Positions 19 to 10,128 of a stretch of DNA of 17,091 nt are shown piece after piece. The notes under the pieces are model-generated. The model saw only the letters and a program-made list of their open reading frames with translations, ran no database searches and was not told the origin of the DNA. The position numbers and the translations under genes are program-made. The DNA is from a virus. The stretch covers positions 1 to 17,091 of the IMG/VR virus record IMGVR_UViG_3300047160_030535, one strand, 5' to 3'. Position 1 is the stretch's first letter; the number at the start of each line of letters is the position of its first letter.

Positions 19-95
19 TGCGGGGTGGAGCAGTCTGGCAGCTCGTCGGGCTCATAACCCGAAGGTCGCAGGTTCAAATCCTGCCCCCGCTACCA
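19..95 (+). tRNA. Initiator tRNA-Met (tRNA-fMet), anticodon CAT at 53-55, CCA encoded
   Basis: 77-nt cloverleaf read by eye. Acceptor TGCGGGG/CCCCGCT, D arm GAGC-AGTCTGGCA-GCTC, T arm GCAGG-TTCAAAT-CCTGC, then A-CCA. Anticodon stem TCGGG/CCCGA has three consecutive G:C pairs next to loop CTCATAA. Layout and most bases match E. coli tRNA-fMet as I remember it. Positions 1:72 are T.T, and an unpaired 1:72 is the initiator hallmark. Confidence 0.9.
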
Positions 96-1705
96 ACGAA
101 ACTACAACGAGAGCCGCCGCCGGCTCTCAGCAGGGACGCCGCGACGCCCTGCTCACTCCAAAGCCTGACCTCCTGCTCGTCTGCCTCGACCGTCACGGTG
201 CCAACGTGCTCGCGGATCTCCTGGCGTGCGCGTGCGATGTCGCCTGAAGCCAGAGTGTCCTCAAGCCTCTCAACCGCTCGCTTGGCGCGTGTGGGCAGAT
301 CGGCCAGAAGCTCCGTAACGTCTGTCGCCGGCGACTGCGAGGCCTCGGCCTGTAGGCGCTCCAGTTCGGTCTCGGCCGCGGCCAAGCGAGCCGCGAGTGT
401 CGGCGAAGCTCGCCACGCACCGCTAGCGATGGCATCGGCTAGGTTGTCGACCTGGGCGCGCAGTTCCGCGGTGCGCCGGCGATTGTCAGGCGCTTTCGCC
501 GTCGGCTTCCGCACCTGTGCACGGAAGCGGCGGCACACCTCCTCGATGACCTCAGGCGACAGCATGTCGTGCTTGATGCCCGCCGTGACTTCCGCTTCGG
601 CCCACTGTCGCCGGATCGTGGCGCTGTTGGTGCACAACGCATGACCGCCGGTGGTGTGGCCAGCGCAGGCGTAGCGATCCACGCCGCGCATGGAGTACGA
701 CGCGCCGCAGTGAGAGCATTTGATCAGACCCGAGAGCAGGAACTTGTTCCCGGTGCCCGAGCGGATCGCGGCGCCTTTGGAGAGGCCACGCCTGACGCCC
801 TCGCCAATGCGGCGCGCCTGTTCCTCGCGGCGCGCCCGCGCCCGTTGCCAGAGATCATCGCTCACAATGCGCAAACGCTCGTCCTGGCGCGTGATCCACT
901 CCGAGCGCGGGTTCAACACCTGACGGCGCCGGCTCGAGTCGGCTGCCGACCGAATCCAGCGCGACCGGTTCCAGATCACCTCGCCCTTGTAAAGCGGGTT
1001 ACACAACACGCCGAGTCCGCGCGCGGGGTTGTTGTAGATCGCGCTCGACACCCACCCACGCTTCCGGCGCGCCTCGCGGCCCCATGTCGAGCCCGGTGAT
1101 GGCACGCCCTCTCGATTGAGCGCCTCCGCGATCGCGCGCGGGCTGTGACCATCGACGTACAAGGCGAACACTCGCCGCACGATTGCAGCTTGCGCCTCAT
1201 CGATCTCAACCTGCCCGGTGCCCGACAGCGCCGGCGGAACGTAGCCATAGGCGCGGCCGCCTGCGGTCTTGCCCTGGCGCGCGCGACCTTCGAGGCCGCG
1301 TCGCGTGCGCCGGCCGATCTCCTTGCGATACGCCTGGGCCATGGCACCGCCGACGGCGCCCATTATCTCTGCCGACTCGTGGCGCGTGTCGAGGTCATGC
1401 GTCACCACCGCGATTCCGAGGTCCGCGAGCTCGGCGAGCCGCGGCGATTGCTCGGCCAGGTTGCGCCACAGGCGCGACGTGTCCTCGGCGACGATTACAT
1501 CAAACTCGCGGTGCCGCGCGGACACCAGAAGCTTCTGATAGCCGGGCCGCTGCGCCGTGCCACCACTGATCGCCGCGTCGCTGAAGCGGGCGATTACCGT
1601 GAACCCGTTGGTATTCGCTATGCGCTCCGCGACTCGGAACTGATCGGGGAGCGAGGCCTCGGATTGCTTCTCCGTCGAGAAGCGGGCATACAGTGCGGCT
1701 CTCAT
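74..1705 (-). CDS. Large serine recombinase (serine integrase family), 543 aa
   Basis: N-terminus MRAALYARFSTEKQ has the resolvase/invertase catalytic-serine motif, followed by DVIVAEDTSRLWRN. Then comes a long recombinase domain, a Cys cluster (CSHCG...CAGH...C) and a coiled-coil-like, Ala/Glu/Leu/Arg-rich C-terminal third, which is the large-serine-recombinase architecture. ATGA start/stop overlap with the upstream gene. The stop codon (74-76) lies inside the tRNA T-loop. Confidence 0.9.
   Translation of the reverse strand: MRAALYARFSTEKQSEASLPDQFRVAERIANTNGFTVIARFSDAAISGGTAQRPGYQKLLVSARHREFDVIVAEDTSRLWRNLAEQSPRLAELADLGIAVVTHDLDTRHESAEIMGAVGGAMAQAYRKEIGRRTRRGLEGRARQGKTAGGRAYGYVPPALSGTGQVEIDEAQAAIVRRVFALYVDGHSPRAIAEALNREGVPSPGSTWGREARRKRGWVSSAIYNNPARGLGVLCNPLYKGEVIWNRSRWIRSAADSSRRRQVLNPRSEWITRQDERLRIVSDDLWQRARARREEQARRIGEGVRRGLSKGAAIRSGTGNKFLLSGLIKCSHCGASYSMRGVDRYACAGHTTGGHALCTNSATIRRQWAEAEVTAGIKHDMLSPEVIEEVCRRFRAQVRKPTAKAPDNRRRTAELRAQVDNLADAIASGAWRASPTLAARLAAAETELERLQAEASQSPATDVTELLADLPTRAKRAVERLEDTLASGDIARARQEIREHVGTVTVEADEQEVRLWSEQGVAASLLRAGGGSRCSFVGSGGRI
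77..95. repeat. attL core: left copy of the element-bounding direct repeat (13-bp perfect 83-95; 17/19 over 77-95)
   Basis: AATCCTGCCCCCGCTACCA here versus AATCGAGCCCCCGCTACCA at 16988-17006. This copy forms the functional T-stem/acceptor 3' strand of the tRNA. Confidence 0.75.
109..153 (+). other. Two consecutive GC-rich hairpins directly 3' of the tRNA, inside the recombinase 3' coding end
   Basis: GAGAGCCG-CCGC-CGGCTCTC (109-128, 8-bp stem). AGCAGGG(A)CG...CGCCCTGCT (129-153, 7+2 bp with one bulge). Neither has a U-tract. Function (tRNA 3' processing/termination, or recombinase mRNA 3' stabiliser) is not determinable from sequence. Confidence 0.3.
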
Positions 1706-3547: not shown

Positions 3548-3832
3548 TTGACGATGACGAGTCTACAACCCCTGCGCCTCGCGCACAAAACTGAGGCGCA
3601 GAGCGCCGCCTCGCGTCGCAGACTTTGCACGGGCTGCCGCCACTTCGCCGCCGCTGCCGACATCACCGTCGTCAACTACGTACACGAGGTCGCGCCCTGC
3701 GCCTGGCGACTGGCCGTGCTGCGGTATTGCCCTCAATGCATTCGCATCTGGAACCGGCTGGAGCTCGCCGTCTGCCTGCGCGCCTTCCGCGCGCGACCTG
3801 CGCTGCGAGTGATCCCGGGAGGGCGGAGGTGA
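3548..3832 (+). CDS. Cys-rich small protein, 94 aa (putative zinc-binding)
   Basis: GAGAGG upstream of the ATG. High GC3. CTGC...C...CPQC arrangement. Its TGA overlaps the GTG of the next gene (GTGA). Confidence 0.55.
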   Translation: MTMTSLQPLRLAHKTEAQSAASRRRLCTGCRHFAAAADITVVNYVHEVAPCAWRLAVLRYCPQCIRIWNRLELAVCLRAFRARPALRVIPGGRR

Positions 3833-4140
3833 CCGCGGAAACTGCCAGCACGCCCAGCCTCGCCCACCTGCAGCGTGAGGCGCGCGAGATCATCGAGCGC
3901 GTCGACCGCGAGGCAGAAGAACTCCGCCAGCAGCTCGCTCGAGGTGTCCGCGAACGCGTGCCGCCCGCGGGGCTCTTATTGCGAACCGCTGCGGCACTTG
4001 GCGCCTGCGGCATCAACCATCGCGCGATGCTCGCGGCGCTCCGTGAGATTAATCAGGATTGCTTCCCAACACTCGATGGCGATGAGTTGGAGGAGATCGC
4101 GGTCGCTTTCACGTGTGATTCCAACGGGGAAGCAGCGTGA
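3829..4140 (+). CDS. Hypothetical protein, 103 aa
   Basis: Start placed at GTG 3829 (GGGAGGGCGGAG just upstream, GTGA overlap). The longer ORF from 3625 has an Arg-rich off-frame-looking N-terminus that overlaps the better-looking 3548 CDS. Helical, Glu/Arg-rich sequence. Confidence 0.5.
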   Translation: MTAETASTPSLAHLQREAREIIERVDREAEELRQQLARGVRERVPPAGLLLRTAAALGACGINHRAMLAALREINQDCFPTLDGDELEEIAVAFTCDSNGEAA

Positions 4141-5387
4141 CCGCCCAACTCGATGCGAGCGGAGGTGCAGCACTGCTCGATGAGTTGGAGAGCTTTCTCG
4201 CACGCTTCGTGGCGTATCCATCGCAGGACGCACGGATCGCTCACGCACTGTGGCTCGCGCACACGCATGCCATGGAGGCCTGGGAAAGCACGCCACGACT
4301 CGCGTTCCTCTCTCCAGAGCCCGGCAGCGGCAAGACCCGCGCGATCGAAGTATCGGAACTGCTGGTGCCGCGCCCAGTCGAGGCGATCAATGCAACTCCT
4401 GCCTATCTTTTCCGTAAGGTTGCGGACCCTGATGGTCTGCCCACGATCTTGTTCGACGAGATCGACACGCTCTTCGGTCCGCGCGCGAAGGAAAACGAAG
4501 AAATCCGCGGTGTGTTGAATGCCGGACATCGACGCGGAGCCATGGCTGGCCGCTGTGTCGTCAAAGGCAAGACCGTGATCACCGAGGAGCTCCCCGCCTA
4601 CTGCGCGGTGGCGCTCGCAGGCCTCGGCAATCTCCCCGATACCATCCTCACGCGCAGCATCGTGATCAGGATGCGCAAGCGCTCCCCCACTGAAATTATC
4701 GAAGGCTACCGGCGACGCCAGCACGCCCCCGAGGGGCACGCGCTGAGAGACCGCCTGGCCACGTGGATGCAAGCCAGGAGCCCCGAACTGAGCGATACGA
4801 GGCCCGCAATGCCAGAAGGCATCACCGATCGCGCTGCCGACGTATGGGAGTCACTACTCGCGATCGCTGATGCCGCAAGCGGCCACTGGCCTGAACGCGC
4901 ACGCGTTACCGCCGTTACCCTTGTTACCGATGCTAAGGCAGCCAGTCCCAGCCTTGGCGTACGCCTCCTCGCTGACCTCCGAACGGTCTTCGCGGGCGCC
5001 CCCGGCCTGCCCACGACTGAGATACTCCGGCGGCTGGCCGAGCTTGAGGATTCCCCCTGGGGTGACCTCAAGGGGAAGCCGCTCGACGCGCGTCGCTTGG
5101 CAAGTCTCCTCCGTCAGTACGAGGTGGAGCGCACAACGTTCCGTATCGGTAACGAAACAGCCAAGGGATACACCTCCGTTACCCTCCACGACGCATGGGC
5201 TAGGTACGTCAACCTTCCTAATAAAGGTAACAAAGGTAACGGAGGTGAGAGTGAGGGCGTAGGAGTGGCTACCAATGGATCGGTAACAGCGGTAACGCCG
5301 GTAACGGCAGGGTGTCGCCGCTGCGGTGGCGAAGGCTGCGAATGGTGTCGGCCCAAAGAGGCGCATCAGAGTGATATCCCGTTCTAG
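4137..5387 (+). CDS. DUF3631-like P-loop ATPase, 416 aa (replication-associated protein of integrative elements/phages)
   Basis: Walker A EPGSGKT, Walker B TILFDEID. The overall order of motifs is as I recall for DUF3631 proteins. C-terminal CRRCGGEGCEWC cluster. GTG start in a GTGA overlap with the previous gene. Confidence 0.75.
   Translation: MTAQLDASGGAALLDELESFLARFVAYPSQDARIAHALWLAHTHAMEAWESTPRLAFLSPEPGSGKTRAIEVSELLVPRPVEAINATPAYLFRKVADPDGLPTILFDEIDTLFGPRAKENEEIRGVLNAGHRRGAMAGRCVVKGKTVITEELPAYCAVALAGLGNLPDTILTRSIVIRMRKRSPTEIIEGYRRRQHAPEGHALRDRLATWMQARSPELSDTRPAMPEGITDRAADVWESLLAIADAASGHWPERARVTAVTLVTDAKAASPSLGVRLLADLRTVFAGAPGLPTTEILRRLAELEDSPWGDLKGKPLDARRLASLLRQYEVERTTFRIGNETAKGYTSVTLHDAWARYVNLPNKGNKGNGGESEGVGVATNGSVTAVTPVTAGCRRCGGEGCEWCRPKEAHQSDIPF
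4905..5305. repeat. Iteron-like array: 10 copies of GGTAAC/GTTACC, three clusters on a 9-bp register
   Basis: GTTACC at 4905, 4914, 4923. GGTAAC at 5148. GTTACC at 5178. GGTAAC at 5226, 5235. GGTAAC at 5282, 5291, 5300. An AT-rich patch TTCCTAATAAAGGTAACAAAGGTAAC lies at about 5215-5240. All copies are inside the DUF3631-like CDS. Confidence 0.7.
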
Positions 5388-5463: not shown

Positions 5464-5478
5464 TTGCGGTTGCTTCTA

Positions 5479-5510
5479 ACTTTCCCTATTCTTGTAAGAA
5501 TTGGGAAAGT
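5479..5510. other. 32-bp near-perfect palindrome with lox/FRT-like layout (12-bp arm, 8-bp spacer, 12-bp arm); candidate tyrosine-recombinase site
   Basis: ACTTTCCCTATT-CTTGTAAG-AATTGGGAAAGT. The arms match 11/12 as inverted repeats. It is AT-rich in a GC-rich background and sits 15 nt upstream of the recombinase ATG. A third arm-like copy, AAATGGGAAAGT, lies at 5578-5589 in the same orientation as the right arm. Confidence 0.55.
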
Positions 5511-5524
5511 CGATAGAGGCCACC

Positions 5525-6160
5525 ATGAGCAACGTCATAGCCTTACGCGCAGCGCGCACCCCCTCGCCGACAACAGAAAATGGGAAAGTTCCGCCGAAGC
5601 GGCGCAAGGACGCCAGGCCGCGGAAGCATCTGACGCCTGCGGAGGTAGCGGCGCTCCTGCGAGCGGCGCGGAAGTCGGGGCGCTACGGGCTGCGCGACGA
5701 GGTGGCGGTGCTACTTGCCTACCGGCACGGCCTCCGGGCCTCGGAGCTCGTCGCACTCGAGTGGTCGGCAATCGACTTCAAGGGCGGCACGATCGCGATC
5801 CGGCGCGCCAAGGGCGGCATGACGACCGAGCACCCGCTTCGCTCCGTCGAGTTGCGCATCCTCGGGAAACTGCGTCGGGAGCAGCCGGAGACGCGCTACG
5901 TGCTCATGAGCGAGCGCGGCACGCCGTGGAGCACGAGCAACTTCCGCAAGGTGCTGCAGCGGCTCGCCGAGGCTGCAGGGCCGGCGATCGCTGTCACCGT
6001 CAACCCGCATGCGCTGCGTCACGCCTGCGGCTTCTATCTCGCCGGCAAGGGTGTCGACACCCGGGCGCTCAGTCACTACCTCGGCCACCGCAGCCTGCAG
6101 AGCACCGAGCGCTACACCGCGCAGAGCGCTCATCGCTTCCGGGACTTCTGGCGCGACTGA
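5525..6160 (+). CDS. Small tyrosine recombinase, 211 aa (catalytic domain only; FimB/FimE / small Xer-Cre size class)
   Basis: Tyrosine-recombinase signature: LLAYRHGLRASE (Arg I), HALRH (His/Arg II), LGHRS, ERYT (catalytic Tyr). There is no arm-binding or long N-terminal domain. AGAGG lies 5 nt upstream of ATG 5525. The TTG at 5501 given by the ORF track falls inside the palindrome and is less likely. Confidence 0.85.
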   Translation: MSNVIALRAARTPSPTTENGKVPPKRRKDARPRKHLTPAEVAALLRAARKSGRYGLRDEVAVLLAYRHGLRASELVALEWSAIDFKGGTIAIRRAKGGMTTEHPLRSVELRILGKLRREQPETRYVLMSERGTPWSTSNFRKVLQRLAEAAGPAIAVTVNPHALRHACGFYLAGKGVDTRALSHYLGHRSLQSTERYTAQSAHRFRDFWRD

Positions 6161-6303
6161 TAAGCAGCAGCTGCTGCAGCTGCAGCAGTACTACTACCAA
6201 TAGATGCACCGAGGCCTGCGACAGATACTCCGGTCACCATCAGGGAGGCCACGAACATCACCATGATCATGATGATCATGATGATCACGACCACCATGGT
6301 CAT
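6130..6303 (-). CDS. Possible small hydrophobic peptide, 57 aa (speculative)
   Basis: MTMVVVIIMIIMIMVMFVASLMVTGVSVAGLGASIGSSTAAAAAAAAYQSRQKSRKR: one very hydrophobic segment, poly-Ala, and a basic tail. No convincing SD. The second half has low GC3. The 3' end overlaps the tyrosine recombinase stop region in antisense. Confidence 0.25.
   Translation of the reverse strand: MTMVVVIIMIIMIMVMFVASLMVTGVSVAGLGASIGSSTAAAAAAAAYQSRQKSRKR
6263..6289. repeat. Tandem 9-bp repeat ATGATCATG x2 plus ATGATCACG, giving three GATC sites 9 bp apart
   Basis: Read directly: ATGATCATG ATGATCATG ATGATCACG. It is embedded in a locally AT-richer, low-complexity segment (6160-6350). Confidence 0.8.
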
Positions 6304-6350
6304 GACGACCACGACCAGGGTGGCTCGGGGGCGAGAGATGTAAGGCGACG

Positions 6351-6641
6351 CTACGCCGCCAGAGCCTTCAGCACGTGGTCCGGATCCTTCTTGATCGCCT
6401 TCAGGAGAGCCTTGGCGGGCCCGGTGGGCTCGCGCAGGCCCTGCTCCCAATTACGCAGCGTGCCGACGTTCACGTGCATCAGGGCGGCGAACTTGGGCTG
6501 GCTCAAGCCGGTCTCCGCCCGCAGCGCCTTGATGGCCACAGCGTCGATGCTGAACTCGCGGGACGGCGCCCGCTCGCCGCGGGCGATTTCGCCCATCTGC
6601 GTCACGCTCTCAACCAGGTCAGCAAACAGCTTTTTGTTCAC
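6351..6641 (-). CDS. higA: HigA-2-like XRE-family antitoxin, 96 aa
   Basis: IKALRAETGLSQPKFAALMHVNVGTLRNWEQGLREPTGPAKALLKAI matches the XRE HTH plus the WEQG.R.PtGpA.aLL signature of HigA-2-type antitoxins. GTG start with GAGAGG upstream. It lies 10 nt downstream of the toxin gene. Confidence 0.8.
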   Translation of the reverse strand: MNKKLFADLVESVTQMGEIARGERAPSREFSIDAVAIKALRAETGLSQPKFAALMHVNVGTLRNWEQGLREPTGPAKALLKAIKKDPDHVLKALAA

Positions 6642-6651
6642 GGCACACCTC

Positions 6652-6963
6652 TCACCAATCCTGCACGAGCCTACGGAGAACCTTCTTTTCTGCTGCGCTC
6701 AGATCGTCTTTCACACCCTTGCTGTAGATCGCCAACAAGCGCACCTGCGATGCCGCGGTGAGGTAGAAGTAGATCACTCGTACGCCGCCGCTCTTGCCAC
6801 CGCCTGGGACCGCCCAGCGCACCTTGCGCAACCCGCCGGTGCCTTGGATGACTGGCCCGGCCTGCGGGCGGAGCGCCAGAAACCACTGAAACTCCGAATA
6901 AGCTTCATCGCTAAGCAGCTCCTTCACCTGCCGGGTGAAGACTGGCGTCTCGATGAAGACCAT
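6652..6963 (-). CDS. higB: HigB-2-like RelE/ParE-superfamily toxin, 103 aa
   Basis: GPVIQGTGGLRKVRWAVPGGGKSGGVRVIYFYL...LLAIYSKGVKDDLSAAEKKVL matches the conserved GtGGlRKlR...GKrGG.RviY...iY.K...dL core of HigB-2-type toxins. Toxin-first gene order is typical of hig loci. Confidence 0.8.
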   Translation of the reverse strand: MVFIETPVFTRQVKELLSDEAYSEFQWFLALRPQAGPVIQGTGGLRKVRWAVPGGGKSGGVRVIYFYLTAASQVRLLAIYSKGVKDDLSAAEKKVLRRLVQDW

Positions 6964-7253: not shown

Positions 7254-7334
7254 GAATTCCTAGGTCGATAGAGTGCAGCTATGATGGCTGCAGTTGGTGA
7301 AGTACTTTTCTGCACCAACAGGAGAGTGCTCGCG

Positions 7335-7955
7335 ATGCCCGGCCAAGGTGGTAACCCGCACGTTCAATGCTCTATCTGCCGGCACGCGGAGCGGCCGCGT
7401 ATGGAGCTATTGCTGGTGAGCGGGGCTGCGGCGAGCGCTGTGGGGCGCAAGTTCAGTGTGAGCCCCCATGCCCTGGGACGGCACTTGCGGGCCCACGTAA
7501 GCCAGGAGAGGCGAGCGCAGCTGATTGCCGGCCCGATCAAGCTGCACGAGCTCGCCGAGCGTGCCGCTGAGTCCGATCTCTCGCTGCGCGACTATCTGGC
7601 GCTCGTGCGCTCCACGGTGCTCGCGCAGATGCTGGCGGCCGCTGAGGCGAGTGACCGGCAGGGGGTGGCGCTTCTCGCCGGGCGGGTGACGGAATGCCTG
7701 CGGCTCGAGGCACAGGTGAACGACGAACTGCGGCCGGTACTCTCGCAGGTCAACAACAACACGGTCATCAACAACTTCTACGCGTCGCCCGAGTTTGCGC
7801 AGTTCATGGATGACCTGGTGCGCGCCCTCGGCCCATTCCCGGAGGCTCGCGAGGCCGTGCTTGCAGTGTTCGAGCGCCGCCTCGCGCCCGCCGCGCAACA
7901 CCCTGCCCTGGAGCATCAGCCCGATGTCAAAGAAACCGCCGCAGCCGCCGTCTGA
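7335..7955 (+). CDS. Putative terminase small subunit, 206 aa (N-terminal Zn-finger + HTH)
   Basis: AGGAG lies 9 nt upstream of ATG 7335; the alternative ATGs at 7281/7284 lack an SD. CSICRH...GRKFSVSPHALGRHLRAH is a C-x2-C plus HTH N-terminus that I recall from small terminase-like phage proteins. The gene lies immediately upstream of TerL and overlaps it by 32 nt. Confidence 0.55.
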   Translation: MPGQGGNPHVQCSICRHAERPRMELLLVSGAAASAVGRKFSVSPHALGRHLRAHVSQERRAQLIAGPIKLHELAERAAESDLSLRDYLALVRSTVLAQMLAAAEASDRQGVALLAGRVTECLRLEAQVNDELRPVLSQVNNNTVINNFYASPEFAQFMDDLVRALGPFPEAREAVLAVFERRLAPAAQHPALEHQPDVKETAAAAV

Positions 7956-10128
7956 GCCCCCGGCGGCGAAGCCGCACCGCGCTTTTGTCGAGGCGTTGCG
8001 CGGCGCGTGGCGCCGTCAGGCGCGTCCCGAGCAGCTCGCACCGCCTGGTGCGTGGACTACGTGGGTGTTCAACGGCGGCCGCGGCAGCGGCAAGACGCGC
8101 AGCGGCGCCGAGTGGGTGCAGGAGCGCGTAGCCGGCGGCGAGAGGTACGTGCACCTGGTCGCGCCTACCGCGGCCGACGTGCGCGACGTCATGCTCGAAG
8201 GGCCGGCGGGCATTCTCAGTATCGCAGCGCCGCACATGCGCCCCATCTATCAGCCGAGCTTGCGCAAGCTCGTTTGGCCCAACGGTGCGCAGGGATTGCT
8301 GTTCAGCGCCGATGAGCCCGACCGATTGCGCGGCCCACAGTGCGGCACGCTCTGGATTGATGAGCTTTGCGCCATGCGTACGGCGCAGGACGTGCTCGAC
8401 AACGCCTACTTCGGGCTGCGCCTCGGCAAGGACCCGCGCTGCCTGATAACTACCACCCCGAGGCCGCTCAAGCCATTCAAGGCGCTGCTCGCGCGCGACG
8501 GCCAGGACGTTGTGGTGACGCGCTCGTCGAGCTACGCGAACCGCGACAACCTGGCGCCGTCATTCTTCGCGCAGATCGTCGCCAAGTACGCAGGGACGCG
8601 TCTACACGCGCAGGAGGTGGAGGCGCAGCTGCTCACGGACACGCCCGGCGCGCTCTGGCATCTCGATCGCATCGAGGAGTTGCGCGTGCGCGTCGCGCCG
8701 CAGCCATTCGAGCGCGTTGTCGTGGCGATCGATCCAGCCGTGACTTTCGGTCCCGACAGTGACGAGACGGGCATCGTGGTAGTCGCGCTCGCCGCGGATG
8801 GCACGGCGTACGTGCTCGATGATCTCAGCGGCCGTTATCCGCCCGAGGAATGGGCGCGCCGCGCGATTCAAGCCTACAGGGTGCACGCCGCCGATCGTAT
8901 CGTCGCCGAGATCAACAACGGCGGTGCGTTGGTTGAGAGCACGCTGCGCAGCGTCGACCCCGGGATTCCGTACACCGCGGTGCACGCGAGTCGCGGCAAG
9001 CTGACGCGCGCCGAGCCAGTCAGCGCGCTCTATGAGCAGGGGCGTGTGCATCACGTCGGCGTGTTCGGGCCGCTCGAGGATCAACTCACGAGTTATGACG
9101 GCAGTCGAAACGGCGCGAGTCCCGATCGGCTGGACGCGCTGTGCTGGGCGATCACCGAGCTCATGCTTGGCGAACCCCCGGGCCGCTTCATCCGCGCCGA
9201 GGCGCTGCTGCGCACGGATTCAGCGGGCGTACCGGCTCCCGTAGACATGCCCGACCAGGTGGAGCGTGTGTTCGCCTTCGCGGCCATCGTTGAGAGCGAA
9301 GCCGATGCGCTCGGCACGGTGTTTTTTGCCGTGGCGCCGGGCAGCCCGCGGGTGGTGGTCGCGGGCTGGGATATTCAGGCCCTCGAGCAGTCAACGCTTG
9401 ACACATATTTCCCAGCGGTGGCCGAGCGCCTGCAGGAGCTCGCCGCGCTCACCGGCAGTAGTCCGCTGCGTGCGCGGCTGATCGTCGAGCCAGCGGGGCT
9501 CGGCGCGGTGCTGCTCGAGCAAGGCCAGCTGCGGCGCTACAACGTTGCGGCGCTCGTCGACAAGGGTCTACTCGAGAAGGATCTGACGGCACGCGTGATC
9601 GAGGTCGGCAACTACCTGGCGGCTGGCGGAATCAAGCTGCTTGCGCGAGCACACGAGGAAACGCAGACGTTCAAGGGAGTGAATCGCAATCATCTGACGG
9701 CAGCGCTCGCCGCATTCAGGCTCGGCGACGCCGACAAGAAGATTGGTCCGCTGCTCGCGGCCTTCGCGACGGGCGCACTCGATGTATTGAACACGAACCC
9801 CGCTCTGAATACGTGGTTGCGGTTGGCGGACCGGTGGGGACTTACGAATCGTGCGCCCGCCGAGGGCGGGAAGCTCGCGAATGTCATGGCACCGCCCCCT
9901 GCGGCGCGCCCTGCGCCGGCCGCGGCGCCGCCCGTGCATCCCGAGGTCGCCAAGCTCATGGGGCCGCTGCTGTACGCGGGCTGCAACGTCGCGGCTATCA
10001 GGCGGCAAGCCGAGCAGACGCTGCGCAAGCGCTGCGAGATCGCGGTGAGTATCGAGCGCCAGGCGGGTCGCCACGCGGCTGCCGATGCGTTGATCGCCGA
10101 GCTGGCCGCCACTGGGCTCACCCCATGA
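7924..10128 (+). CDS. Terminase large subunit, 734 aa, with an unusual ~315-aa C-terminal extension
   Basis: Walker A GGRGSGKT and Walker B-like TLWIDE. Nuclease-domain motifs VVVAIDPA, IVAEINNGGALVES, SPDRLDALCWAITEL. This core ends near nt 9180, but the ORF continues to 10128. Start set at ATG 7924 (MSKKPPQPP). Confidence 0.9.
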   Translation: MSKKPPQPPSEPPAAKPHRAFVEALRGAWRRQARPEQLAPPGAWTTWVFNGGRGSGKTRSGAEWVQERVAGGERYVHLVAPTAADVRDVMLEGPAGILSIAAPHMRPIYQPSLRKLVWPNGAQGLLFSADEPDRLRGPQCGTLWIDELCAMRTAQDVLDNAYFGLRLGKDPRCLITTTPRPLKPFKALLARDGQDVVVTRSSSYANRDNLAPSFFAQIVAKYAGTRLHAQEVEAQLLTDTPGALWHLDRIEELRVRVAPQPFERVVVAIDPAVTFGPDSDETGIVVVALAADGTAYVLDDLSGRYPPEEWARRAIQAYRVHAADRIVAEINNGGALVESTLRSVDPGIPYTAVHASRGKLTRAEPVSALYEQGRVHHVGVFGPLEDQLTSYDGSRNGASPDRLDALCWAITELMLGEPPGRFIRAEALLRTDSAGVPAPVDMPDQVERVFAFAAIVESEADALGTVFFAVAPGSPRVVVAGWDIQALEQSTLDTYFPAVAERLQELAALTGSSPLRARLIVEPAGLGAVLLEQGQLRRYNVAALVDKGLLEKDLTARVIEVGNYLAAGGIKLLARAHEETQTFKGVNRNHLTAALAAFRLGDADKKIGPLLAAFATGALDVLNTNPALNTWLRLADRWGLTNRAPAEGGKLANVMAPPPAARPAPAAAPPVHPEVAKLMGPLLYAGCNVAAIRRQAEQTLRKRCEIAVSIERQAGRHAAADALIAELAATGLTP

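What the first reader, a model, noticed from the sequence alone, without database searches (positions are those of the whole stretch)
5479..5589. lox/FRT-like 32-bp site immediately upstream of a minimal tyrosine recombinase, with a third arm copy inside the gene
ACTTTCCCTATT-CTTGTAAG-AATTGGGAAAGT has two 12-bp inverted arms (11/12) around an asymmetric 8-bp spacer. That is the canonical architecture of simple tyrosine-recombinase sites (loxP, FRT, dif-like). It lies 15 nt before the ATG of a 211-aa catalytic-domain-only recombinase. A further arm-like copy, AAATGGGAAAGT (5578-5589), follows in direct orientation to the right arm, reminiscent of the third symmetry element of FRT. Together with the iteron-like region and the neighbouring toxin-antitoxin pair, this suggests a plasmid-style maintenance module (multimer resolution) for an episomal stage. 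Alternatively it could be an autoregulatory or invertible switch. A self-contained new recombinase/site pair would also be a potential genome-engineering tool.
Basis: partly seen in the sequence, partly recalled or inferred. Interest (0 to 1): 0.65.

Follow-up and report, generated by a model that had tools for sequence, protein, structure and literature searches.

The report
Three-arm site of a minimal tyrosine resolvase
A very small DNA-cutting-and-rejoining enzyme in a prophage-like element sits next to its own 111-bp, three-part target site; the pair belongs to a widespread, apparently undescribed family whose other members mostly sit in Tn3-type transposons, where such pairs separate fused DNA molecules.

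Summary
Window 5479-5510 is a 12-8-12 inverted repeat. It lies 14 nt upstream of a 211-aa, single-domain tyrosine recombinase gene (5525-6160). A third arm copy lies at 5578-5589 inside that gene.

In 96 of 160 related loci (40-100% protein identity; cyanobacteria, proteobacteria, CPR and others) the same layout recurs: inverted arms, an 8-bp spacer, and a third direct arm 76-79 or 89-91 bp downstream. All three arms change together between clades. The amino acid encoded at the third arm follows the DNA change, and its synonymous codon positions are frozen.

Outside the window's clade, 20 of 27 well-flanked loci lie next to a Tn3-family transposase. Two pairs of such transposons switch sequence similarity at the core.

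The window's clade lacks the transposase. It always sits between the replication and terminase genes of small prophage-like elements.

A conserved -35/-10 promoter overlaps the left arm.

Best reading: a res/IRS-like resolution site with one accessory arm, which also acts as an autoregulated promoter. Its closest functional analogue is TnpI/IRS of Tn4430 and Tn5401. By sequence the enzyme is closest to FimB/FimE. An inversion switch, an attP site and a terminator are not supported. This is a new variant of a known kind.

The parts
5464..5469 (+). -35-like hexamer TTGCGG; the clade consensus is TTGAC
   Evidence: It sits exactly 17 nt before the -10-like hexamer. The position is conserved in 13 of 15 orthologous sites although the surrounding upstream sequence is unrelated. 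In this window it is weak, 3/6 to TTGACA, and the promoter scan did not call it.
5479..5490 (-). Left arm of the core site, ACTTTCCCTATT (reverse complement AATAGGGAAAGT)
   Evidence: It is conserved in class A orthologues and co-varies with the other arms across clades.
5487..5492 (+). -10-like hexamer TATTCT, formed by the inner half of the left arm
   Evidence: A TAnnnT hexamer at this fixed position in 14 of 15 class A sites (L071 has TAATAC); most have a TTGnnn -35 hexamer 17 nt upstream, which is weak or absent in L071 and L091. Its promoter function is inferred.
5491..5498 (+). 8-bp central region CTTGTAAG, the presumed crossover region
   Evidence: It varies between orthologues while the arms stay conserved. 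In the L148/L046 transposon pair, similarity breaks at the second base of this region. The cleavage positions are not known.
5499..5510 (+). Right arm of the core site, AATTGGGAAAGT
5533..5545 (+). Conserved TCA-N5-TTA block (CGTCATAGCCTTA), a candidate bending-protein (IHF-like) site midway between the core and the third arm
   Evidence: It matches 6 to 9 of the 9 specified positions of WATCAANNNNTTR in all 15 class A sites. Only 0.15% of background positions reach 7 or more. The rare Leu codon TTA is used in 14 of 15. The IHF consensus is from my own knowledge, and binding is untested.
5578..5589 (+). Third (accessory) arm AAATGGGAAAGT, inside codons 18-22 of the recombinase gene
   Evidence: It lies 79 bp from the right arm in every class A site. 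Family-wide the distance is 76-79 or 89-91 bp. It co-varies with the core arms. Its synonymous positions are frozen: GGG 14/15 and AAA 15/15.
5525..6160 (+). Gene for a 211-aa tyrosine recombinase that has only the catalytic domain
   Evidence: PF00589, E = 2.6e-35. R71, K96, H162, R165, H188 and Y197 are aligned with the XerD catalytic residues and are invariant. The model shows one domain, residues 38-208. The best fold matches are Xer catalytic domains.

Best explanation
Window 5464-5589 is the complete target site and promoter of the adjacent minimal tyrosine recombinase.

Proposed mechanism. Two recombinase molecules bind the inverted arms (5479-5490 and 5499-5510) and exchange strands across the central 8 bp. 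A further molecule binds the third arm, 79 bp away inside the gene's own 5' end. That arm is possibly folded back onto the core by a bend at the conserved TCA-N5-TTA block. This asymmetric accessory arm gives the site a direction. It favours deletion between two directly repeated copies on one molecule, as the DR1 and DR2 repeats do for TnpI at the Tn4430 resolution site.

In most relatives the reaction would resolve Tn3-type transposition cointegrates. In this prophage-like element, which has no transposase, it would resolve multimers of the replicating or episomal form, or circularise terminally redundant DNA.

The -10 hexamer lies in the left arm and the third arm lies in the coding region. 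The same binding should therefore repress the recombinase's own transcription.

Shown: the anatomy, its conservation, arm co-variation, DNA-level constraint on the third arm, an intact active site, Tn3 linkage of relatives, and similarity breaks at the core.

Inferred: binding, cleavage positions, resolution selectivity, autoregulation, bending, and the role in the phage.
For: 1. The three-arm layout was found de novo in 96 of 160 related loci, giving 79 distinct site sequences. Scores were mostly 27-32 of 36, against a mean of 21.7 and a maximum of 26 in shuffles.

2. The arms co-vary by clade, including the third arm: GGGAAAG, GGGCAAG, GGCAAAG and GGTCAAG. The encoded residue follows the DNA (G-K, A-K, V-K) and the reading frame differs between clades.

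3. Third-arm codons are GGG in 14/15 and AAA in 15/15. Elsewhere in the same genes these codons make up 21% and 15%.

4. The distance from right arm to third arm is 76-79 bp (71 unique sites) or 89-91 bp (8 sites), with none in between. The step is about one helical turn.

5. There is one site per element. No further arm copy occurs in 15-20 kb loci.

6. Outside the window's clade, 20 of 27 loci with long flanks have a Tn3-family transposase within 1.5 kb, in several gene orders. The site always stays at the recombinase 5' end.

7. Natural mosaics exist. L148 and L046 are 93-95% identical up to and through the left arm, then about 50-75% identical from spacer base 2 onward. L022 and L016 are 72% identical to the left and 97-100% identical from the left arm onward.

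8. All six catalytic residues are invariant.

9. A -35 hexamer, a 17-nt gap and a -10 hexamer inside the left arm are conserved although the upstream DNA is otherwise unrelated.

10. There is precedent. In Tn4430 and Tn5401 the site has a core plus accessory repeats bound by the same recombinase, lies just upstream of its gene, and overlaps the promoter (PMC2847244, PMC7157771).
Against: No experiment exists for any member of the family.

The window's clade is never next to a transposase (0 of 13), so its substrate is unknown.

A phage that packages from concatemers does not obviously need multimer resolution.

Only one accessory arm is detectable, whereas TnpI/IRS has two.

In this window the promoter match is weak, 7 of 12, and it was not called by the scan.

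The similarity breaks could also arise from homologous recombination next to a conserved block.

The codon statistics use related sequences, so the P values are nominal.
Confidence: 0.6

Rival explanations
1. The site is only an operator. In this prophage clade the palindrome and third arm serve just to repress transcription, either through the recombinase acting as a repressor or through another regulator. No recombination takes place.
For: The -10 hexamer lies inside the left arm, and a -35 hexamer is conserved 17 nt upstream. The third arm lies in the transcribed region. The clade has lost the transposase context that explains resolution in its relatives.
Against: All six catalytic residues are invariant across the clade, which a mere repressor would not need. 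The site co-varies with the recombinase rather than with its neighbours, which differ between loci. The 12-8-12 geometry and the variable spacer are those of crossover sites. Relatives show similarity breaks at the core.
Confidence: 0.12
2. The site is used for integration or module exchange. The recombinase would join the element, or the 0.75-kb site-plus-gene module, to a matching site elsewhere, as with attP-like or pdif-like module capture. It would not resolve multimers.
For: The 14.9-kb element in L071 is flanked by 46-bp tRNA-Glu repeats and has no other integrase. In class A, homology starts exactly at the left arm and the left flanks are unrelated. That pattern is what site-specific module exchange would leave.
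Against: The site is intact and internal in integrated elements, 5 kb from either end. The 46-bp att repeats of L071 have no arm motif. The window and L077 carry separate integrases, serine and tyrosine respectively, next to tRNA genes. No second site was found in any locus.
Confidence: 0.12
3. The site is an invertible switch of the FimB/FimE type. The left arm and the third arm, which are inverted relative to each other, would flank an 87-bp segment holding the ribosome-binding site and start codon. Flipping it would turn the gene off.
For: The closest named protein models are the FimB/FimE 'tyrosine-type DNA invertase' models, at about 40% identity to plasmid invertases. The repeat finder reports inverted repeat I3, 5478-5495 with 5573-5590.
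Against: The third arm is a lone half-site. The 12 nt that should form its partner arm match 4 of 12, and the adjacent 8 bp (ACAACAGA) share no homology with the core spacer (direct reading). No inverted version of the intervening segment occurs in 15 class A sites or 49 cyanobacterial sites. The protein scores fall below the family cut-off, 133 against 221. The layout is the same in Tn3 transposons, where the expected reaction is resolution.
Confidence: 0.05
4. The palindrome is a transcription terminator for the upstream DUF3631 gene, or a chance palindrome.
For: It lies 91 nt after the stop codon of the upstream gene.
Against: The stem is AT-rich with a 2-nt centre and no T run follows it; the terminator scan did not call it. 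It is conserved with the recombinase gene next to unrelated upstream genes.
Confidence: 0.01

Closest known systems
TnpI / IRS resolution system of the Tn3-family transposons Tn4430 and Tn5401 (PMC2847244, PMC7157771)
   Same: A tyrosine recombinase gene sits directly downstream of its site. The site is about 110 bp (116 bp in Tn4430, 111 bp here). It consists of an inverted-repeat core where exchange occurs plus directly repeated accessory copies of the same motif on the gene side. In Tn5401 the binding sites overlap the promoter. There is one site per element. Most relatives of the window protein lie in Tn3-family transposons.
   Different: The protein here has 190-215 aa, with only a catalytic domain and a disordered basic tail. 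TnpI, from my own knowledge, has 284-306 aa. There is one accessory arm instead of two. That arm is embedded in the coding sequence or start codon, 76-79 bp from the core. By sequence the nearest models are FimB/FimE. The window's clade is not in a transposon.
FimB / FimE tyrosine invertases of the E. coli fim switch
   Same: These are the closest named sequence models (NF007370 and NF007371). Size is about 200 aa, and there is no N-terminal core-binding domain. Use of a bending protein between sites is possible here, as IHF is used in fim (own knowledge).
   Different: Scores fall below the family cut-offs. There is no pair of inverted sites flanking an invertible segment. No inverted variants were found. 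The genomic context is transposons and prophage-like elements rather than fimbrial operons.
Tn3 / gamma-delta resolvase with the res site (serine recombinase)
   Same: The functional logic is the same. There is a crossover subsite plus accessory subsites bound by the same protein. The site lies between or upstream of the transposition genes and doubles as the promoter and operator for autoregulation. Hybrid transposons arise by exchange at res (own knowledge).
   Different: The enzyme family and chemistry are unrelated: serine rather than tyrosine. res has three dimer-binding subsites.
Cre / loxP of phage P1, and Flp / FRT
   Same: The core geometry is the same: inverted arms of 12-13 bp around an 8-bp central region. 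The recombinase gene is close to its site in a phage genome. In P1 the system resolves dimers and circularises the genome (own knowledge).
   Different: Cre and Flp have two domains and need no accessory site. The third FRT element abuts the core, while here the gap is 67 bp and phased. Sequence and fold similarity to Cre is only at superfamily level (rank 39).
Single-recombinase Xer systems whose site lies next to the gene (XerS/difSL, XerH/difH)
   Same: One tyrosine recombinase gene lies next to a site of about 30 bp with two arms. The function is dimer resolution. The best structural matches of the model are Xer catalytic domains.
   Different: Xer proteins have a core-binding domain. All Xer models score far below their cut-offs. 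The site here is on mobile elements and has an accessory arm.

Membership tests
Tyrosine recombinase superfamily (Pfam PF00589) | Match to the catalytic-domain profile above the curated cut-off | tested here: met
   122.2 bits against a cut-off of 27.1, over residues 35-202.
Tyrosine recombinase superfamily (Pfam PF00589) | Catalytic residues Arg, Lys, His, Arg, His/Trp and the Tyr nucleophile | tested here: met
   R71, K96, H162, R165, H188 and Y197 align with XerD R148, K172, H244, R247, H270 and Y279 (the XerD numbering is from my own knowledge). They are invariant in 39 homologues.
Tyrosine recombinase superfamily (Pfam PF00589) | Catalytic-domain fold | tested here: met
   The AF2 model has pLDDT of about 87-96 over residues 41-150 and 63-74 over residues 151-210. 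Foldseek hits are XerA, XerD and lambda Int, with E down to 1e-8.
FimB/FimE tyrosine-type DNA invertases (NCBIfam NF007370, NF007371) | Score at or above the curated family cut-off | tested here: not met
   133.4 and 132.1 bits against cut-offs of 221 and 222. These are nevertheless the best-scoring models.
FimB/FimE tyrosine-type DNA invertases (NCBIfam NF007370, NF007371) | About 200 aa with no N-terminal core-binding domain | tested here: met
   211 aa. Residues 1-37 have no secondary structure and low confidence.
FimB/FimE tyrosine-type DNA invertases (NCBIfam NF007370, NF007371) | Acts on two inverted sites that flank an invertible segment found in both orientations | tested here: not met
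   There is no second full site in loci of 15-20 kb. The third arm is a lone half-site. No inverted intervening segment occurs in 15 plus 49 sites.
TnpI/IRS resolution modules of Tn3-family transposons | Encoded within a Tn3-family transposon, next to tnpA | tested here: not met
   The window and its clade have a transposase nearby in 0 of 13 well-flanked loci. Relatives outside the clade have one in 20 of 27. A public record annotates one such neighbour as 'transposase Tn3 family protein'.
TnpI/IRS resolution modules of Tn3-family transposons | The site lies just upstream of the recombinase gene and has an inverted-repeat core plus direct accessory copies of the same motif | tested here: met
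   The core is 5479-5510 and the accessory arm is 5578-5589. The layout is conserved family-wide. Only one accessory arm is detected, whereas Tn4430 has two (PMC2847244).
TnpI/IRS resolution modules of Tn3-family transposons | Protein homologous to TnpI over its full length, including the N-terminal domain | not tested
   No TnpI sequence was available to compare. Bacillus plasmid hits are at most 29% identical, and the two I inspected are not TnpI. The protein is too short to have an N-terminal domain.
TnpI/IRS resolution modules of Tn3-family transposons | The recombinase binds all motifs, and the accessory motifs impose resolution selectivity | not testable with these tools
   This needs footprinting and plasmid topology assays.
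TnpI/IRS resolution modules of Tn3-family transposons | Binding sites overlap the promoter, giving autoregulation as in Tn5401 | tested here: inconclusive
   A TTGAC-N17-TAnnnT arrangement is conserved, with the -10 inside the left arm. The window's own match is weak, and the promoter scan found nothing.
Simple lox/FRT-type sites (Cre, Flp) | Two inverted arms of 12-13 bp around an asymmetric 8-bp spacer, sufficient on their own | tested here: inconclusive
   The geometry is met. Sufficiency is doubtful, because the third arm is conserved at a phased distance in 79 distinct sites.
Simple lox/FRT-type sites (Cre, Flp) | A third FRT symmetry element directly abutting the core | tested here: not met
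   67 bp separate the right arm from the third arm.
Xer / integron integrase families | Score above the curated cut-offs of the XerC, XerD, XerA, XerS and IntI models | tested here: not met
   All are far below cut-off, for example XerA 88.8 against 220 and IntI 44 against 265.

The most novel reading that the evidence does not exclude
This would be a fourth, undescribed type of Tn3-family resolution system. The three types described so far are TnpR, TnpI and TnpS/T. The new type would consist of a recombinase of about 200 aa with only a catalytic domain, working at a three-arm site of about 110 bp. The accessory arm of that site is written into the recombinase's own start region, so the protein binds the DNA that encodes its N-terminus. 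One lineage has been taken over by small prophage-like elements as a fixed module between the replication and packaging genes. If the accessory arm gives directionality without host factors, this would be among the smallest self-contained directional recombinase/site pairs.
Probability: 0.4. Interest if true: 0.7.

Novelty: new variant of a known kind. Interest (0 to 1): 0.6.

Why it matters
The 2020 survey of Tn3-family transposons lists three resolvase types and only three elements with a tyrosine resolvase of the TnpI kind (PMC7157771).

Here a different, much smaller tyrosine recombinase occupies the resolvase position in many Tn3-family transposons of cyanobacteria, proteobacteria and candidate phyla. 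Its site is well defined and co-evolves with it.

The family supplies natural specificity variants in which arms and protein change together. It also shows a phased accessory arm and an overlap between a protein-binding site and the codons for that protein's own tail. All of these are directly testable.

Its transfer into prophage-like elements raises the question of what a resolvase does for them.

For genome engineering, recombinases of 190-215 aa with 32-bp cores and several orthogonal arm classes would be attractive, if they are active outside their hosts.

Tried and rejected
1. An exact-pattern scan of genome contigs for the 32-bp site, with W at two positions, found nothing. The host genome is not in that collection, so copy number in the host could not be counted.

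2. Viral contigs gave only one distant relative, at 40% identity. Deposited phage genomes hold nothing closer than 36%.

3. My first palindrome scan, with a strict threshold, missed the cyanobacterial sites. They appeared only when the sequences were read directly and with the three-arm scorer.

4. I suspected that the roughly 4-kb high-coverage cyanobacterial contigs were rRNA or another RNA. Rfam found nothing. They hold a Tn3 transposase that runs off the locus end.

5. A search for a fourth arm, an equivalent of DR1, with clade-specific weight matrices found no consistent peak.

6. The inversion hypothesis was rejected. There is no inverted middle segment, no partner arm and no spacer homology.

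7. The terminator reading was rejected.

8. The attP reading was rejected for the integrations actually seen, because the site is internal and intact and the att repeats carry no arm motif.

9. I tried to reach Bacillus thuringiensis TnpI through plasmid hits. The two hits I inspected are ordinary 340-aa integrases.

10. Five literature searches for a description of short FimB/E-like recombinases as Tn3 resolvases, or in cyanobacterial Tn3 elements, found nothing. The library does not cover subscription journals, ISfinder or TnCentral.
Full report
**1. The observation**

Window 5479-5510 reads ACTTTCCCTATT-CTTGTAAG-AATTGGGAAAGT.
- The repeat finder reports it as 15-nt arms, 93% complementary, around a 2-nt centre. 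It also reports the direct copy AAATGGGAAAGT at 5578-5589.
- The arm motif occurs three times in the window against 0.43 expected, all within 111 bp.
- It is the only inverted repeat of at least 14/15 with a short spacer in the window. Dinucleotide shuffles give a mean of 0.065.
- The site is 34% GC in a 64% GC window.
- The gene starts at ATG 5525, not 5526, and ends at 6160.
- The product has 211 aa and one Pfam domain, PF00589, over residues 35-202.
- A structure model shows residues 1-37 disordered and a single catalytic domain over 38-208. Its best fold matches are the catalytic domains of Xer recombinases.
- R71, K96, H162, R165, H188 and Y197 align with the XerD active site. They are invariant in 39 homologues.

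**2. Context in the window**

The 17-kb window is a small prophage-like element. In order it holds:
- tRNA-Met at 19-95;
- a large serine recombinase at 74-1705, minus strand;
- PriCT and DUF3631 replication-type genes at 3625-5387;
- the site and the short recombinase;
- a convergent RelE/HigB-like toxin with an HTH antitoxin at 6351-6963;
- a possible terminase small-subunit gene (7281-7955, no family match) and the terminase large-subunit gene (7795-10128);
- a baseplate-hub-like gene.

**3. Conservation in the window's own clade**

The protein search listed more than 100 clusters at 66-83% identity. Fifteen distinct orthologous sites align without gaps.
- Conserved blocks are a -35 hexamer (TTGAC), the left arm, TA in the spacer, the right arm, the start codon, a TCA-N5-TTA block and the third arm.
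- The sequence upstream of the -35 is unrelated between loci, at about 50% identity, which is the alignment baseline. The right side is 74-84% identical.
- The spacer varies (CTTGTAAG, CTGCTAGG, GTTATAGA, ACTACAAG and others) while the arms stay fixed.
- The third arm is always 79 bp from the right arm.
- Where flanks are long enough, the module lies between replication genes and the terminase.
- The integrase varies: serine in the window, tyrosine next to tRNA-Lys in L077, and none in L071. The short recombinase is therefore not the element's integrase.
- A different toxin-antitoxin-like pair (DUF4160/DUF2442) occupies the downstream position in L071. L077 has none.
- Each 15-20-kb locus has exactly one core and one third arm.

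**4. Conservation across the wider family**

A de novo scorer looked for a 12-nt arm, an 8-nt gap, an inverted 12-nt arm and a third direct copy. It found the layout in 96 of 160 loci, giving 79 distinct sequences. Scores were mostly 27-32 of 36. Shuffled controls gave a mean of 21.7 and a maximum of 26.

The arm sequence differs by clade, and all three arms change together:

| Clade | Left arm | Right arm | Third arm |
|---|---|---|---|
| Window clade and L052 | ACTTTCCCTAWW | AAWTGGGAAAGT | AAATGGGAAAGT |
| L027 | TCTTTCCCGAAA | TTTCGGGAGAGT | TTTCGGGAAAGT |
| Cyanobacteria | ACATTACCAAAA | TTATGGGCAAGT | TTATGGGCAAGT |
| Two further clades | ACTTGACCGAAA | (variable) | TTTCGGCAAAGT or TTTCGGTCAAGA |
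| A CPR genome (L036) | ACTTCCCCAATT | AAATGGTGAACT | AAATGGGCAAGT |

The third arm is read in different frames and encodes different residues. It gives N-G-K-V in the window, S-G-K-L in L027, S-A-K-L in L059 and S-V-K-T in L046. In cyanobacteria it holds a possible ATG start (M-G-K-L). The encoded amino acid follows the DNA change, not the reverse.

In the window clade the Gly codon at the third arm is GGG in 14 of 15 and the Lys codon is AAA in 15 of 15. Elsewhere in the same genes GGG is 21% of Gly codons and AAA is 15% of Lys codons. The P values are nominal, because the sequences are related.

The distance from right arm to third arm is 76-79 bp in 71 distinct sites and 89-91 bp in 8, with nothing in between. 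The step is one helical turn, which points to physical contact between the third arm and the core complex.

Weight-matrix scans found no consistent fourth arm.

**5. What the relatives are**

- In cyanobacteria the gene lies divergently next to a transposase of about 930-1030 aa. Its N-terminus and length are those of the Tn3 family. A public plasmid record annotates it as 'transposase Tn3 family protein'.
- Several contigs of about 4 kb consist of just these two genes. The one I read in full (L016) ends in a Tn3-like terminal repeat.
- Among loci outside the window's clade that have the three-arm site and at least 1.5 kb on both sides, 20 of 27 have the transposase within 1.5 kb. In the window's clade the figure is 0 of 13.
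- Gene orders vary (divergent, co-linear, convergent). The site always stays at the 5' end of the recombinase gene.
- This is the position and logic of a Tn3-family resolution site.

**6. Evidence that exchange happens at the core**

- Two transposons, L148 and L046, are 93-95% identical through the end of tnpA, the intergenic region and the whole left arm. Identity then drops to about 50-75% starting at the second base of the spacer.
- L022 and L016 show the reverse pattern: 72% identity to the left and 97-100% from the left arm onward.
- Sharp breaks that bracket the core are what exchange between two res sites leaves in hybrid transposons. That comparison is from my own knowledge of the Tn21 group. 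Homologous recombination at a conserved block is the alternative explanation.

**7. Promoter and possible bend**

- In 13 of 15 class A sites a TTGnnn hexamer lies 17 nt before a TAnnnT hexamer formed by the inner half of the left arm.
- In the window these are TTGCGG (5464-5469) and TATTCT (5487-5492). The match is weak, and the generic scan did not call it.
- Binding at the core should therefore repress the gene, as reported for Tn5401 TnpI (cited in PMC7157771).
- The block at 5533-5545 matches 6 to 9 of the 9 specified positions of the IHF consensus WATCAANNNNTTR in all 15 sites. Only 0.15% of background positions reach 7 or more.
- That block includes a Leu codon that is the rare TTA in 14 of 15.
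- A bend there would fold the third arm back on the core. This is inferred only.

**8. Comparison with known systems**

- By sequence, the nearest curated models are the FimB/FimE invertases, but at 133 bits against a cut-off of 221. Plasmid-borne invertases are about 40% identical.
- By function and site anatomy, the nearest is TnpI/IRS of Tn4430. That site is 116 bp, with an IR1-IR2 core and DR1 and DR2 accessory repeats bound by the same enzyme. The repeats impose resolution selectivity and strand-exchange order (PMC2847244).
- Differences from TnpI/IRS: a much smaller single-domain protein, one accessory arm, and that arm embedded in the coding sequence.
- lox and FRT share only the core geometry.
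- The 2020 survey of the Tn3 family lists TnpR, TnpI and TnpS/T as the resolvase types, with TnpI in only three elements (PMC7157771).
- I found no description of this family in the searchable literature. Subscription journals, ISfinder and TnCentral were not covered.

**9. Rejected readings**

- Inversion. The third arm has no partner arm (4 of 12 matches) and no spacer homology. No inverted segment was seen in 64 sites.
- attP for the observed integrations. The site is internal and intact, and the att repeats of L071 lack the motif.
- Terminator. There is no T run, and the scan did not call it.

**10. Verdict**

- The finding is real.
- The better model is a Tn3-type resolution site with an accessory arm and built-in autoregulation.
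- The function in the prophage-like element remains inferred: multimer resolution or circularisation.

Noticed in passing
window 4905-5305: The hexamer GGTAAC occurs 12 times in the window against 2.75 expected, and 10 of the copies lie here. They form 9-bp-period triplets on the minus strand (4905-4928) and on the plus strand (5282-5305), plus further copies between them. All are inside the 3' half of the DUF3631 gene. This could be an iteron array or replication origin.
   Followed up: partly
window 6161-6340: Between the recombinase stop codon and the antitoxin gene lies a run of trinucleotide and 9-nt arrays: GCAGCAGCT x2.8 at 6164-6188, and ATGATCATG and related units at 6262-6317. It has no clear ORF. 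In one frame it would read His/Asp-rich, in another Ile/Met/Thr-rich. It is unexplained.
   Followed up: no
window 5533-5545 and the same position in 14 orthologous loci: The TCA-N5-TTA block resembles the IHF consensus. Leu7 of the recombinase uses the rare TTA codon in 14 of 15 orthologues from GC-rich genomes. This suggests a DNA-level constraint inside the coding region in addition to the third arm.
   Followed up: partly
L071 5055-5100 and 19969-20014: A related 14.9-kb element is bounded by perfect 46-bp direct repeats, one of them inside tRNA-Glu. Two further degenerate att-like copies lie in tandem at 4612-5103. The element carries no integrase other than the short recombinase, so how it integrated is unclear.
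   Followed up: partly
window 5499-5524, and L001, L003, L089, L090: The right arm contains an in-frame TTG (in the window) or ATG (in some orthologues), reading M-G-K-S, eight codons upstream of the Shine-Dalgarno-preceded ATG. With the predicted -10 at 5487-5492, transcription would start about there, so a leaderless alternative start is conceivable.
   Followed up: no
L162 (Legionella pneumophila plasmid NZ_CP021280.1, 52982-57194): Two short tyrosine recombinase genes lie in tandem directly upstream of a Tn3-family transposase. Only the first has the three-arm site, with a third-arm distance of 78 bp. This may be a two-recombinase variant, reminiscent of the FimB/FimE pair.
   Followed up: partly
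L092 (third arm region): In one orthologue the third arm is duplicated in tandem 9 nt apart (GGGAAAGTAGGGAAAGT), encoding G-K-V-G-K-V.
   Followed up: no
window 6351-6963, and L071 10654-11336: Different toxin-antitoxin-like pairs occupy the same position: RelE/HigB with an HTH protein in the window, and DUF4160 with DUF2442 in L071. In both cases the pair lies immediately downstream of the recombinase gene and is convergent with it. This echoes the reported habit of toxin-antitoxin pairs sitting next to Tn3-family resolvase genes (PMC7157771).
   Followed up: partly
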